Shown one piece after another: positions 1 to 3,000 of a DNA stretch of 15,515 nucleotides. Within the stretch, counting starts at the first letter, position 1. The number at the start of each line of letters is the position of its first letter. This stretch comes from a virus. Taxonomy: Duplodnaviria; Heunggongvirae; Uroviricota; Caudoviricetes. Position numbers: made by a program. Location of the stretch: IMG/VR virus record IMGVR_UViG_2703718872_000005, one strand, 5' to 3'.

Positions 1-3000
1 TTATGCCAGAAAACAACAGGCACCCCGAAGGGTGCCTGTGTCATGACGGAATAAAATTTCTGAAATTCTTCACATTTCCGGCAATTGCCTGTAGCCACTA
101 TAATGACGCAGCGTTACAGTTTTTTTGCTCAATAAAAGCAATAATTATCAGACCTCCTTAAGGTGACTATTCGTCTCCCGTCAGTATCCGGCGATATTAC
201 GGGAGATTTTTTTGCTTCAGCCACACCACAACATCCTGCTCATTTACGCCACTGGTACCCTGGCGGTCATCCGTTCTGTAAACCTGCGACAGAAAAAGTC
301 TGAATTTCTTCACATTTTCTGTACGTTCCCGTGGCAGATATCATTCCGGGGCGTTACAGTTTTTTCGGGTCAATAAAAACAAAACTCCTTGAACGTTAAT
401 CTTCATCGGTTCTGTCCCGCAGTCTCCGGACTCTGCGGGATTTTTTTATCCCTTAACCCCGGCATGATGTTTTCTGTCTTCTGCCACAGATACCCGGCAA
501 GCTCCCTGCACCTCTGCAGCAAAAAATTTCTGAATTTCTTCACATTTTCGCAAAATCCATGTGGCGCTTATAATTTCGCTGCGTTAATGTTTTTCTGCCC
601 AAAAAAATAACTCCATAACGTTAATCTTCATCGTTATTTCCCGCAGCTCCGCTAACTCTGCGGGATTTTTTTTTATTTTTATCCCCGCCCGATAACCACC
701 ACTTTCCCGTCTCCGCCCTCATCACGGGTGCTGATATCCTGGGATATCCGTCGTGAACCAACCAGCATTTCACCGTAAGGCACCGGCATCGGGTTACCCT
801 GGGCAATCATGTTGTCCAGTGACGAAAAATACGTGTTCTGTTTACCGTTATCCGTACTTTTATACTCCGGCGTCTTTGCCTTCGGGGCCAGCATCTGAGC
901 CACACCACCCAGTATCATGCTGGCACCCAGTGAGAACAGCATCGTGGTGGCAGTCAGCCCTCCGGCACTCAGGGCTGCGCCCCATGCCGCCAGTGTTGCA
1001 CCACCAGTGAAAAATGACCCGACAATCGCTGCAACCCCCAGCACCACCTGAAAAACACCATTTCCCCGGCTCCGGCCAGTCGCGGCACAATGTGGATGAC
1101 CGCTCCCTCACCCAGTTGTTCGTGAAGACGGGCGTACACCGCCTCCGGTGCGGTATCCTCACCGGCAATACGTATCTGATACCAGCCTTCGTTCATCTGA
1201 CAGCGGAATCCCGGCACCTGCAGCGACAGGGCACGGATGGCCTCCGCTGCCGTGTTCACATACAGGCTGATGCGGCGACCAAATCGTTGTAAATCCCCGT
1301 GAAGGCAGATGCGGACCAGTGGCGGTGACGCCAGACAGAATGCGTTCGTCGTTGCCATTTTTCAGAATACCTCTCCCGTTTACTCAGTTGTTCAGGTATA
1401 TGGTGAAGCAGCTCACCGTTGCCACAGTAAATGGCGGCATGATTCGGCACCGATGCGCCAAAGCAGCACAGCAGGATATCGCCTGCCTGTGCACAGGACG
1501 GAGACACCCGGTAAAAGCCGTTGTCCGCCAGGTTGTCCAGGTACAGGTTCTGACCGTTGCGCCACCAGTCATCCTCACGCACAAAATCCGGCAGCGTTAT
1601 CCCCGCCAGATGGTATGCATCCCGGAACAGGGTGTAACAGTCCGTCACACCGTGTTCAAAGCGCCGTCCGGTCAGGTGCGGCACACAGCGGAACCGGTGA
1701 ATGTCACCCCGGCAGACCAGCCACCAGGGCAGGGCACTCTTTATCTGCAGCCGCCGGTCCGCCTCGCTCAGCCAGGGCAGTCCACCGGGATGACTGTGGA
1801 CCAGCGTCACAATCTCCCCCTGCATCTGTGCCTGCAGCCAGTCTTCCGGTGCAATACGAAAATACGCCTCCGGCTCTGCGGAGATATTCACGCAGGGCTG
1901 GTACCGTTCGCCCTCCGGGGTGCTTATCACGAAGCCGCACGACTCCGCTGGCGCACACCGCCGGGCATGCGCCAGAATCGCTGATTCAGTCTGTGTCANN
2001 NNNNNNNNNNNNNNNNNNNNNNNNNNNNNNNNNNNNNNNCAGCATGATGCGACCGGGAAACAGCGCCCCGTCCGTCTCCGTCGGTGTCGCCAGCACAAAC
2101 GAGGCCGTCATGGCCGTCAGCGATGACATCTGCTCCACCACCCACCGGTCCGTCAGCTCCTGCTCCGGGTCGGCCTCAGGATTGCCTGCCACAAAGTTCA
2201 CCGCATCCAGAAAACGCGCATACACCCGGCGACGGACCACCGTGGCACCCACCAGGCTCTGCAAATCCTCCGCCATCCCGGTGACCAGCCCGAAAAGATT
2301 GGACACTGTAAGCGACGGGCGGGCACTGCTGCCCTTTCCGTTCATCTCAAAGCCGCTGCCCTCAATCGGGTACGCCTGATATTCACGCCCCTGCCAGGTC
2401 ACTGGCTCCCCTTTTTCATTCAGCTCATTGCAGAAAAAATACCGCTCACCGCCCTGCACCGTCAGGTCGATTTCCCAGAGCACCACCCGCGGTGACTGCT
2501 CTGATTTAACCGACTCGTTCAGGCTTTCTTCGTGAATATCCTGCATCAGTTCACCACCTGCTTAAACTCCGCGCTGAACTCAACGCGCAACATCCCGACC
2601 CGCGCAGACCACCCGGCACAGGTCACCTTTATCTGCCGGTATGCATAGGGTGGCTTCCACAAAAATGCCTTCCAGCCCCCGTGCTCTGCCAGGAACGCTT
2701 CCAGATGCCGGGCCTCCTCCCGGGTCACGGAAAGCGTCACCCGGTATGTTTTCAGGTCAGCATTCAGCCCTGCCGCCATACGCTGTGAGTACCCGTCACC
2801 AAAACGCACTTCACGCACCGACGGCTGCGAGTTCACCTCCATATCCGGCTTCACTTTCCAGCGAAAGGTTTTCATCGCCCGCTCCCTGATAACATACCGC
2901 CATCACGCAACTGCAGCCGGAGNNNNNNNNNNNNNNNNNNNNNNNNNNNNNGCCTCCTTCGTGAAAACAAACTCCCCGCGGTGAACTATCCCCGCAGGCT

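What the first reader, a model, noticed from the sequence alone, without database searches (positions are those of the whole stretch)
153..163. Unit 1 transcript carries a 16S rRNA 3'-end mimic (CCUCCUUA) within a CCUUAAGG palindrome
The sequence cctcctta at 153-160 is identical to the anti-Shine-Dalgarno end of 16S rRNA. Units 2 and 3 have degenerate versions (ctccttga, ctccataa) at the same place. In an sRNA, such a motif could act as a seed pairing with strong SD sequences (AAGGAGG) of target mRNAs. Alternatively it may simply reflect an SD on the opposite strand.
Basis: partly seen in the sequence, partly recalled or inferred. Interest (0 to 1): 0.45.

Follow-up and report, generated by a model that had tools for sequence, protein, structure and literature searches.

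The report
Prophage small RNA with anti-ribosome-site seed
The motif is real. It lies in the probable target-binding stretch of the first of three back-to-back genes for a known family of prophage small regulatory RNAs (PasB/EcOnc22) in toxin-producing E. coli, so it is a rare variant of an ordinary feature, not a new kind of element.

Summary
CCTCCTTA is at 153-160. With A152 it equals the last 9 nt of E. coli 16S rRNA, and CCTTAAGG is at 156-163. On its own it is not significant (1 found, 0.23 expected). The window begins in the spacer between tail genes J and I of a lambdoid STEC prophage. The three units are tandem copies of a known Hfq-dependent sRNA family: EcOnc22/23/24 of O157 Sakai and PasB of EPEC E2348/69. 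A covariance model built without these units finds exactly three hits: 91, 76 and 28 bits for units 3, 2 and 1. Across 138 family units the aligned position reads AAYUCCUUA in most; 56% of 132 tallied units carry UCCUUA. The stretch is mostly predicted unpaired. Published RIL-seq targets of PasB pair best with PasB nt 35-61, which begins at this box (p=2e-4 against background), and several pairings cover SD-like GAAGGA(G) sites. An anti-SD seed is therefore plausible by homology. Against this, the box is the more variable half of the seed and some members lack it. The full 16S-identical version occurs in only 21 of 5,426 genomes, all near-identical, and unit 1 has no expression data. An opposite-strand SD/ORF is not supported. 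Verdict: a divergent new member of a known family, of modest interest.

The parts
16..39 (-). G+C-rich hairpin followed by TGTTTTCTGG on the tail-gene strand, just upstream of the J start codon (J lies left of the window). Terminator-like boundary of the inserted sRNA cassette.
   Evidence: Terminator scan. The same hairpin sits at the same place in the Sakai Sp15/14/11, phage 1717, E2348/69, L174 and L175 loci.
59..74 (+). Unit 1 conserved upstream box TCTGA-N6-TCACA (CRP-consensus-like), part of the invariant block TCTGAAnnTCTTCACATTT.
   Evidence: The half-sites are kept while N6 varies in divergent units.
99..104 (+). Unit 1 -10 hexamer TATAAT.
   Evidence: Read from the sequence. Aligned with TATCAT/TATAAT/AATAAT of the other units.
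111..213 (+). Unit 1 predicted sRNA (about 87-103 nt depending on the true 5' end), a divergent PasB/EcOnc22-family member.
   Evidence: Covariance model R1, built without it, gives 28.5 bits, E 3e-4, full-length match. The fold has z -3.0.
131..145 (+). A-R-N repeat tract (AAU AAA AGC AAU AAU) directly 5' of the seed. Candidate Hfq distal-face site.
   Evidence: Read from the sequence. An A-rich tract is present at this place in all aligned members. The ARN motif as an Hfq site is from Tree 2014, PMC4104026 (abstract).
152..160 (+). The finding: ACCUCCUUA, identical to the 16S rRNA 3' end. It aligns with the family box AAcUCCuUA.
   Evidence: Unpaired probability is 0.14-0.26 for 152-155 and 0.95-0.99 for 156-160.
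152..164 (+). Marginal 4-bp hairpin ACCU/AGGU with loop CCUUA. It contains the CCUUAAGG palindrome (156-163).
   Evidence: MFE and centroid structures. Base-pair probabilities.
162..174 (+). GGUGACUAUUCGU, the conserved 3' half of the unit-1-type seed region. It occupies the position of box B (UUAAUCUUCRU) in other members.
   Evidence: Identical in four unit-1-type variants whose box A differs: window, L175, L174 and L176.
173..213 (+). Unit 1 rho-independent terminator: 15-bp interrupted stem followed by U7.
299..314 (+). Unit 2 TCTGA-N6-TCACA box.
351..447 (+). Unit 2 sRNA. Box A CUCCUUGA is at 385-392, box B UUAAUCUUCAU at 396-406, and the terminator at 415-447.
   Evidence: R1 gives 75.8 bits, E 8.5e-14. 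Also.
529..544 (+). Unit 3 TCTGA-N6-TCACA box. The TATAAT is at 569-574.
581..672 (+). Unit 3 sRNA, near-identical in its seed and terminator to EcOnc22 of O157 Sakai. Box A CUCCAUAA is at 611-618, box B at 621-631 in a hairpin loop, and the terminator at 639-672.
   Evidence: R1 gives 91.3 bits, E 6e-17. Also.
679..1260 (-). Tail assembly gene I (the right-hand neighbour of the array), frameshifted here by a 1-nt deletion in a C-run at 1063.
   Evidence: Annotation of the 99.75%-identical locus L001. Pfam Lambda_tail_I on 969-1358.

Best explanation
Window 1-700 is the spacer between tail genes J and I of a lambdoid prophage of Shiga-toxin-producing E. coli. Three tandem sRNA genes are inserted there, transcribed opposite to the tail operon. 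All three belong to the Hfq-dependent prophage sRNA family known as EcOnc22/23/24 (O157 Sakai) and PasB (EPEC E2348/69). Each gene has a conserved upstream box, a -10 hexamer and a short 5' leader. This is followed by an A-R-N tract and a roughly 25-nt, mostly unpaired seed region: box A (AAYUCCUUA), a variable linker and box B. A rho-independent terminator with a U-tail closes the gene. The reported motif is box A of unit 1. One A-to-C difference from the family's ACUCCUUA extends its identity to the 16S 3' end from 7 to 9 nt. Most likely mechanism, inferred by homology and not shown for unit 1: in lysogens the sRNA binds Hfq and pairs in trans through box A and the adjoining nucleotides with mRNA translation-initiation regions, for some targets directly over an AAGGAG-type Shine-Dalgarno sequence. 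This would block ribosome entry or alter mRNA stability. Different units carry different seeds and therefore probably address different target sets.
For: Locus identity: the first 720 nt are 100% identical to STEC chromosomes, where they lie between gpJ and the tail assembly gene.

Family identity:
- Single-unit homologues occupy the same J-I spacer in Sakai Sp15/Sp14/Sp11, phage VT1-Sakai, Stx2 phage 1717 and E2348/69 PP6.
- The PasB coordinates and northern probe (PMC8550237 Table S6) fall on that unit.
- The EcOnc22/23/24 Hfq-CRAC peaks (+ strand, ~85 nt northern, destabilised without hfq; PMC4104026 Table S2) all fall in the three Sakai J-I spacers. After the +137 to +146 coordinate shift calibrated on AgvB they land on the sRNA body.
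- Model R1, built from 15 other members, finds exactly units 3, 2 and 1 (91.3, 75.8 and 28.5 bits) and aligns ACCUCCUUA to AAcUCCuUA.

Conservation and accessibility:
- 138 units give 31 seed variants. In a tally of 132 units from the earlier 48-variant alignment, UCCUUA is present in 74.
- Mean unpaired probability is 0.4-0.8 over box A and 0.6-0.9 over box B.
- RNAalifold finds no conserved structure other than the terminator.

Function by homology:
- PasB has 37 RIL-seq partners and drops 2^6.8-fold without hfq.
- For 12 top partners fetched, 9 have their best 12-nt pairing window inside PasB nt 32-61, and 8 fragments overlap or directly adjoin a start codon.
- Examples: yijD AAAUGUGAAGGAC (-18..-6), the gene after E2348C_2648 AGAAGGAGA (-14..-6), napF GGUCAAUGUGAAGA (-7..+6), caiF and tolC.
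- The seed region beats 240 background fragments (Mann-Whitney p=2e-4). The 5' region does not (p=0.97).
Against: - There are no expression, Hfq-binding or target data for unit 1 itself. Only unit-3-like (EcOnc22) and PasB-type members have northern or crosslinking support.
- The CCUCCUUA version is near-clonal (21 genomes, >=98% identity), so its conservation carries no independent weight.
- Box A is the more variable half of the seed. It reads CUCCAUA, CUCCCUG, CUCUCUA or UUAUCUA in some members. It is absent in the L176 unit-1-type variant (CUAAUCAAGG) and in one unit of the 4-unit array in L174.
- Zhu, Shabalina and Storz place the PasB seed just upstream of the terminator, closer to box B. 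No common target motif was reported for PasB: it does not occur in Table S7.
- In unit 1 the first four bases of the motif are predicted to be paired about 80% of the time.
- The pairing analysis is in silico, covers 12 targets and uses a simple duplex energy without accessibility.
- The 8-mer alone is not beyond chance.
Confidence: 0.55

Rival explanations
1. Box A is a tolerated, drifting linker. The working seed of the family is the better-conserved downstream box: UUAAUCUUCRU in most members and GGUGACUAUUCGU in unit-1 types. The resemblance of unit 1 to the 16S end is a one-substitution accident with no consequence.
For: Box B is more conserved than box A. Four unit-1-type variants keep GGUGACUAUUCGU while box A differs or is lost. 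Zhu et al. propose the seed just upstream of the terminator. Three PasB targets (tolC, ydbJ, hflX) pair best with box B. The 8-mer is not significant by chance.
Against: Across the 12 PasB targets, the largest excess of pairing energy over shuffled controls is at windows starting at nt 37-44. These windows span the 3' part of box A (UCCUU) and the variable linker. Five targets pair with UCCUU plus the linker. UCCUUA is kept in 56% of 132 tallied units despite extensive mosaicism around it.
Confidence: 0.25
2. The array acts mainly in cis or on related phages. Each sRNA is fully complementary to the I-J stretch of the late tail-operon transcript, and largely complementary to that of co-resident or superinfecting lambdoid phages. 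Pairing or convergent transcription would lower J (tail tip) expression. The motif would then have no role of its own.
For: The genes always sit between I and J and always face the tail operon. Complementarity to the late transcript follows from this arrangement. The family has a median of 4 places per genome that carries it, so cross-talk between prophages is possible.
Against: EcOnc22 and PasB are abundant in uninduced lysogens and have many trans partners on Hfq. The seeds diversify between units, which is not needed for cis antisense action. No data show an effect on J. This explanation does not exclude the best one.
Confidence: 0.1
3. The motif is the complement of a Shine-Dalgarno sequence (TAAGGAGGT) for a small protein encoded on the minus strand, possibly a type I toxin with the + strand RNA as antitoxin.
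For: A perfect SD on the minus strand at 160-152 is followed by a 23-aa TTG ORF at 141-70. Units 2 and 3 and PasB have a minus-strand ATG AAG ATT AAC... opening.
Against: The TTG lies 11 nt from the GGAGG. The 23-aa product is not hydrophobic and is not conserved: its middle is unrelated in the other unit-1-type variant (sequence, read by hand). The 'MKINV' ATG exists in only 70 of 132 units. The others read ACG or ACA, and the frames differ between members through 1-nt indels.
Confidence: 0.03
4. Unit 1 is a true 16S 3'-end decoy. Its ACCUCCUUA competes with ribosomes for all strong SD sequences, or titrates a factor that recognises the 16S 3' end, giving a global rather than a target-specific effect.
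For: 9-nt identity to the 16S 3' end, with CCUUA displayed in a loop.
Against: No evidence supports this beyond the identity itself. The variant is rare and recent. Relatives work with 6-7 nt of the box or without it. An sRNA is far less abundant than ribosomes (general knowledge).
Confidence: 0.03

Closest known systems
PasB (EPEC E2348/69, prophage PP6; Pearl Mizrahi et al. 2021, PMC8550237; Zhu, Shabalina and Storz 2026, bioRxiv 10.64898/2026.05.13.724894)
   Same: Same J-I spacer, same orientation, same upstream box and -10. Same ARN tract, box A, linker, box B and terminator layout. Units 2 and 3 share the CCCGCAG...CUGCGGGAU7 terminator.
   Different: PasB was described as a single gene per prophage: the smallest distance between copies in the Zhu et al. 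survey is 28,355 bp. Here there are three tandem genes with different seeds. Unit 1 has a different box B and terminator and the extended ACCUCCUUA box. The function of PasB is itself not established.
EcOnc22/EcOnc23/EcOnc24 (O157:H7 Sakai Sp15, Sp14, Sp11; Tree et al. 2014, PMC4104026, Table S2)
   Same: Same spacer and strand. Unit 3 matches the Sakai sequence almost base for base from box A to the terminator. The Sakai RNAs are Hfq-crosslinked, ~85 nt on northern blots, and destabilised without hfq.
   Different: There is one unit per Sakai prophage. Targets are listed as unknown in a 2021 review (PMC7873438). The link between EcOnc22 and PasB is my inference from sequence. Pearl Mizrahi's Table S6 lists EHEC homologues for PasA and PasD but none for PasB. 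The Sakai coordinates are from an older genome version, so the mapping rests on a calibrated shift.
LhrC1-5 of Listeria monocytogenes (Sievers et al. 2014, PMC4132741)
   Same: A multicopy 'sibling' sRNA family that binds Hfq and pairs with a target mRNA through CU-rich sites to block translation (abstract). This is the same working principle as proposed here. Its partly tandem gene arrangement is from my own knowledge.
   Different: Unrelated in sequence, Gram-positive and chromosomal. It has three redundant CU-rich sites per RNA, and Hfq is not needed for its stability. This is an analogy only.
Cuckoo RNAs / CcsR1-4 of alphaproteobacteria (Reinkensmeier and Giegerich 2015, PMC4615179)
   Same: An anti-SD-like motif (CCUCCUCCC) is displayed in hairpin loops (abstract). 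The tandem, multicopy arrangement of these genes is from my own knowledge. Unit 1 also shows part of its motif in a loop.
   Different: A cuckoo RNA has 2-4 adjacent hairpins, each with the motif in its loop. Here the motif occurs once, in a marginal 4-bp hairpin, within an otherwise open seed region. There is no sequence relationship and the taxon is different.
AgvB/AsxR anti-sRNAs (Rfam RF02702, RF02703; Tree et al. 2014)
   Same: Short Hfq-binding sRNAs carried by lambdoid prophages of EHEC, with variable 5' seeds on a conserved 3' scaffold.
   Different: They lie at the PR' 'moron' site near the lysis genes, not between I and J, and they act by sponging core sRNAs. Rfam models give no hit in the window, even at E<=10 in 1-750, while the AgvB model does find its gene in Sakai.

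Membership tests
PasB / EcOnc22-24 prophage sRNA family | Gene lies in the spacer between tail genes J and I of a lambdoid prophage, transcribed opposite to them | tested here: met
   Window 1-720 maps between gpJ and the tail assembly gene in STEC chromosomes. The same holds for Sakai, VT1-Sakai, phage 1717, E2348/69 and L174-L176.
PasB / EcOnc22-24 prophage sRNA family | Conserved upstream block TCTGAAnnTCTTCACATTT followed by a TATAAT-like -10 | tested here: met
   All three units have it.
PasB / EcOnc22-24 prophage sRNA family | RNA body recognisable by a sequence/structure model built from other members | tested here: met
   R1 was built from 15 members, none from this array and none of unit-1 type. 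Unit 3 scores 91.3 bits, unit 2 75.8 bits and unit 1 28.5 bits (E 3e-4), all full length; the next hit has E 0.9. Unit 1 is a clear outlier in score.
PasB / EcOnc22-24 prophage sRNA family | Rho-independent terminator with U-tail at the 3' end | tested here: met
   Folds of all three units. The scan finds the unit 3 terminator. One family member carries a compensatory CCCACAG/CUGUGGG stem.
PasB / EcOnc22-24 prophage sRNA family | Expressed as an ~83-85 nt RNA that binds Hfq and depends on it for stability | not testable with these tools
   Shown for EcOnc22 and PasB. No data exist for the window's strain or for any unit-1-type RNA.
AgvB/AsxR anti-sRNAs | Match to Rfam RF02702/RF02703 and location at the PR' moron site | tested here: not met
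   No Rfam hit at gathering score in the whole window or at E<=10 in 1-750. The location is the tail operon.
Type I toxin-antitoxin (Sib/Ibs-like tandem repeats) | Conserved small hydrophobic ORF on the strand opposite the sRNA | tested here: not met
   Minus-strand ORFs differ between units. The candidate ATG is present in only 70 of 132 units, and the frames are shifted by 1-nt indels.
Cuckoo RNA / CcsR family | 2-4 adjacent hairpins, each with CCUCCUCCC in the loop | tested here: not met
   There is a single ACCUCCUUA, half of it in a 4-bp stem. The family definition is from PMC4615179.
CRP-activated promoter (side observation) | TGTGA-N6-TCACA site centred near -41.5 or -61.5 relative to the start of transcription | tested here: inconclusive
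   TCTGA-N6-TCACA is present in all units, 9 of 10 consensus positions. Its centre is about 32.5 bp upstream of the first base of the TATAAT, that is about -43.5/-44.5 for a standard start, and the start site is not mapped. The consensus and spacing rules are from my own knowledge.

The most novel reading that the evidence does not exclude
The J-I spacer of lambdoid prophages may be a dedicated landing pad. There, PasB-type genes would be duplicated and their seeds swapped, giving arrays of 1 to 4 'sibling' sRNAs that act as a fast-evolving library of host-directed regulators. Within this library, the 16S-identical seed of unit 1 would be a broad-spectrum member that competes with ribosomes at strong Shine-Dalgarno sites, for example on late mRNAs of rival phages or on highly translated host genes, rather than at a few specific targets.
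Probability: 0.07. Interest if true: 0.7.

Novelty: new member of a known kind. Interest (0 to 1): 0.35.

Why it matters
PasB/EcOnc22 RNAs are among the more abundant Hfq-bound prophage sRNAs in EPEC and EHEC, yet their function is unknown. Three results here make the family more tractable. First, the two names refer to one family. Second, the family has a definable seed, box A through box B, supported by existing RIL-seq partners. Third, some STEC lineages carry 2-4 tandem copies with different seeds. Together these give concrete mutations and reporter targets to test. They also suggest that prophages diversify host regulation by seed swapping at a fixed site. The specific '16S mimic' adds little beyond marking unit 1 as the member best suited to test whether box A reads Shine-Dalgarno sequences.

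Tried and rejected
- Rfam, at gathering score on the whole window and at E<=10 on 1-750: only noise.
- Genome-contig scan with TCTGAAWTTCTTCACATTT: 33 chance hits in unrelated phyla and none in Enterobacteriaceae representatives. This was uninformative because only one genome per species is held.
- Phage-record search with unit 1: 147 records match only the promoter and 5' part. No phage record carries the unit-1 seed or terminator.
- Pas sRNAs other than PasB, and the AgvB/AsxR anti-sRNAs: they sit at a different prophage site, near Q and the lysis genes.
- Opposite-strand small protein or type I toxin: rejected for lack of a conserved start, frame or product.
- Whole-length duplexfold of PasB against targets gave meaningless long duplexes. 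It was replaced by 12-nt windows with shuffled and genomic controls.
- Scan of the window's own genes for unit 1-3 targets: the best hit is a 10-nt CCUUAAGGAG inside the portal gene. There is no start-codon association and no statistics, so it was not pursued.
- RNAalifold on 20 members found only the terminator, with no conserved structure over the seed.
- A host-genome-wide target prediction could not be run, because no tool holds the full genome.
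Full report
OBSERVATION. CCTCCTTA is at 153-160 on the + strand. Including A152, the 9-mer ACCTCCTTA equals the 3' end of E. coli 16S rRNA, which I checked on rrsH of MG1655 (...GGATCACCTCCTTA). CCTTAAGG is at 156-163. Units 2 and 3 carry ctccttga (385-392) and ctccataa (611-618) in register with it. The 8-mer occurs once in the window against 0.23 expected, and 41 of 200 shuffles have at least one, so in isolation it is not remarkable.

WHERE IT IS. The window is the late region of a lambdoid prophage, with all genes on the minus strand. These are terminase gpA, a lambda-type portal, a ClpP-capsid fusion, the tail tube, the tape measure, and tail genes L, K and I. The first 720 nt are 100% identical to chromosomes of human STEC isolates, where they lie between gpJ and the tail assembly gene I. 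The window therefore starts 36 nt from the J start codon, and positions 1-678 are the J-I spacer. In phage lambda these two genes almost abut (own knowledge); here there is about 0.7 kb of inserted DNA.

WHAT THE UNITS ARE. The spacer holds three units about 230-240 bp apart (40-225, 285-450, 515-690), all on the + strand. Each unit has:
- an invariant block TCTGAAnnTCTTCACATTT,
- a TATAAT-like hexamer,
- an RNA body of about 90-100 nt,
- a strong terminator with a U-tail.

No Rfam family matches. Single-unit versions occupy the same spacer in O157 Sakai prophages Sp15, Sp14 and Sp11, in phage VT1-Sakai, in Stx2 phage 1717 and in prophage PP6 of EPEC E2348/69. Two published sRNAs map there.

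PasB. Pearl Mizrahi et al. (PMC8550237, Table S6) give NC_011601 1466343-1466261, minus strand, 83 nt. The northern probe is the reverse complement of AGCTCCGCGATCACTGCGGGATT, which is the terminator of the E2348/69 unit. PasB falls 2^6.8-fold in an hfq mutant and has 37 RIL-seq partners.

EcOnc22/23/24. Tree et al. (PMC4104026, Table S2) list Hfq-CRAC peaks on the + strand in Sp15, Sp14 and Sp11, with an ~85 nt northern band that is destabilised without hfq. Their coordinates refer to an older Sakai record. The AgvB peak is displaced by +137 to +146 relative to NC_002695.2. With that shift all three peaks land on the sRNA bodies. Without any shift they still fall inside the three J-I spacers.

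The papers I read do not connect PasB with EcOnc22 (one search lists no EHEC homologue for PasB), so that link is my inference. As a formal test, a covariance model was built from 15 family members that exclude this array and all unit-1-type sequences. It finds exactly three significant hits in the window: unit 3 at 91.3 bits, unit 2 at 75.8 bits and unit 1 at 28.5 bits (E 3e-4). It aligns ACCUCCUUA with the consensus AAcUCCuUA. Unit 1 is thus a divergent member, with a different box B and terminator.

THE MOTIF IN ITS FAMILY.
- A pattern scan of IMG/VR plus the fetched loci gave 138 units with 31 different seed regions.
- The common layout is a 5' GCGUUA and U-run, an A-R-N-rich tract, box A (AAYUCCUUA), a 3-4 nt variable linker, box B (UUAAUCUUCRU), and the terminator.
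- In a tally of 132 units from the 48-variant alignment, box A reads ACUCCUUA in 38, AUUCCUUA in 33, ACUCCAUA in 18, ACUCCCUG in 16, ACUCCUUC in 10 and CCUCCUUA in 3. So 56% carry UCCUUA, the last six bases of 16S.
- Mean predicted unpaired probability is 0.4-0.8 over box A and 0.6-0.9 over box B. RNAalifold finds no conserved pairing other than the terminator.
- In unit 1, ACCU (152-155) pairs with AGGU (161-164) in about 80% of the ensemble, while CCUUA is 95-99% unpaired. This is a 4-bp hairpin that a target or Hfq could easily open.

The full unit 1 RNA is found in only 21 of 5,426 complete E. coli genomes, all at >=98% identity. About 89 further genomes carry a related type in which the box is AACUCCUUAAGG or UACUCCUUAAGG, and one variant has CUAAUCAAGG instead. 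All of them keep GGUGACUAUUCGU. The 9-nt identity to 16S is therefore one substitution away from the ordinary family box, and box A is the less constrained half of the seed.

DOES THE BOX WORK AS A SEED? There are no data for unit 1, so I used PasB. From Table S3 of PMC8550237 I took 12 of the strongest PasB partners and fetched the chimera regions with 60-nt margins.
- Eight fragments overlap or directly adjoin a start codon. In three cases it is the start of the downstream gene of an operon: the gene after E2348C_2648, yijD after fabR, and yrdD after smg.
- Sliding 12-nt windows of PasB against each fragment put the best pairing inside nt 32-61 for 9 of 12 targets.
- The mean gain over shuffled targets peaks at windows starting at nt 37-44 (UCCUUCACAUUGAUC..., about -2 kcal/mol).
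- Examples: yijD AAAUGUGAAGGAC at -18..-6; the gene after E2348C_2648 AGAAGGAGA at -14..-6; caiF UGUGUGAAGGAUGUG at +1..+15; napF GGUCAAUGUGAAGA at -7..+6; tolC UGCAAAUGAAGAA at -5..+7 (this last one uses box B).
- Against 240 length-matched fragments from the prophage coding strand, the seed region pairs better with the real targets (Mann-Whitney p=2e-4). The 5' third of PasB does not (p=0.97).

So the stretch homologous to 153-175 is the best-supported seed, and in some targets box A lies over an SD-like GAAGGA(G). This is an in-silico reading of published interaction data, not proof. Zhu et al. place the PasB seed slightly further 3', and no shared target motif was reported for PasB.

ALTERNATIVES.
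- Opposite-strand SD. TAAGGAGGT is followed after 11 nt by a TTG-initiated 23-aa ORF (141-70). That ORF is not conserved. The tempting minus-strand 'ATG AAG ATT AAC' of units 2 and 3 and PasB is ACG or ACA in 62 of 132 units, and 1-nt indels change the frame. Rejected.
- Cis-antisense control of the I-J part of the late transcript. This follows from the arrangement and is not excluded, but it does not explain the Hfq-bound trans partners or the seed diversity.
- A literal 16S decoy has no support beyond the identity.

COMPARISON AND NOVELTY. The closest relatives are PasB and EcOnc22-24, and units 2 and 3 are plain members. New relative to what I could read:
- Unit 1 is a divergent paralogue.
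- The arrangement is tandem. Among sampled loci, 113 are single, 4 double, 3 triple and 2 quadruple, for example E. coli 07-4299 with four different seeds. Zhu et al. report a minimum distance of 28 kb between pasB copies, presumably because divergent units escape an 83-nt BLAST query.
- PasB and EcOnc22 are the same family.

In working principle, the nearest analogues are multicopy sRNAs with CU-rich anti-SD sites, namely LhrC1-5 and the CCUCCUCCC 'cuckoo' RNAs. These are analogies, not relatives.

VERDICT. This is a new member of a known kind, of modest interest.

Noticed in passing
window 59-74, 299-314, 529-544; also L174 and L176: Every unit carries T[C/A]TGA-N6-TCACA inside its invariant upstream block, matching 9 of 10 positions of the CRP consensus TGTGA-N6-TCACA. 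There are 3 matches against 0.15 expected, though the repeats are not independent. The half-sites stay fixed while the 6-nt spacer varies in divergent units. PasB is higher in overnight static LB than in virulence-activating medium, the opposite of Spf, which fits CRP activation. The centre is about -43.5/-44.5 for a standard start, not the canonical -41.5.
   Followed up: partly
L174 (E. coli 07-4299, J-I spacer, locus 137-960) and L096: Four-unit arrays of PasB-type genes, each unit with a different seed. One unit has no CUCC box at all (AAAACGCCAACAGGUUAGUCAACAUCG). Sampled array sizes: 113 single, 4 double, 3 triple, 2 quadruple. Tandem copies are not described in the PasB survey.
   Followed up: partly
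L037/L038/L039 (Sakai Sp15, Sp14, Sp11) and L041 (E2348/69): By position and sequence, EcOnc22/23/24 of Tree et al. 2014 and PasB of Pearl Mizrahi et al. 2021 are the same sRNA family. The PasB table lists no EHEC homologue. Sakai coordinates in the 2014 table are shifted by about +137 to +146 relative to NC_002695.2, at least near 1.94 Mb.
   Followed up: yes
window 131-145 (and the aligned tract in all units): An A-R-N repeat tract (AAU AAA AGC AAU AAU; AAC AAA AAC AAC in PasB) lies directly 5' of the seed. Together with the U-tail, this is the layout expected for an sRNA that contacts both the distal and proximal faces of Hfq (own knowledge).
   Followed up: no
window 16-39, minus strand: A 10-bp G+C-rich hairpin followed by TGTTTTCTGG on the tail-operon strand, just upstream of the J start. 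It is conserved in all loci examined, with only loop changes. It looks like a terminator that the late transcript must read through, or a boundary of the inserted cassette.
   Followed up: no
window 1063; 1999-2039; 2923-2951; 2903-5287: Tail gene I has a 1-nt deletion in a C-run relative to the 99.75%-identical locus L001, which shifts its frame. Two runs of N are masked. The tape-measure gene is split into ORFs of 536 and 202 aa. The prophage may be defective, or the record may be of draft quality.
   Followed up: partly
L001 5153-5293 and 11919-13073: In the closely related STEC prophage, a hok/gef toxin gene lies downstream of J, and an ompC-like porin gene is inserted between tail genes L and M. 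These are further cargo genes in the same tail operon. The window diverges from this locus beyond about 2546.
   Followed up: no
window 11323-11355, minus strand (inside the portal gene): This is the best in-window complement to the unit 1 seed: CCUUAAGGAG pairs with CUCCUUAAGG, helped by the palindrome. It is not at a start codon and has no statistics.
   Followed up: no
window 8623-10794, minus strand: A single 723-aa ORF joins a ClpP-type protease domain to a major capsid domain.
   Followed up: no
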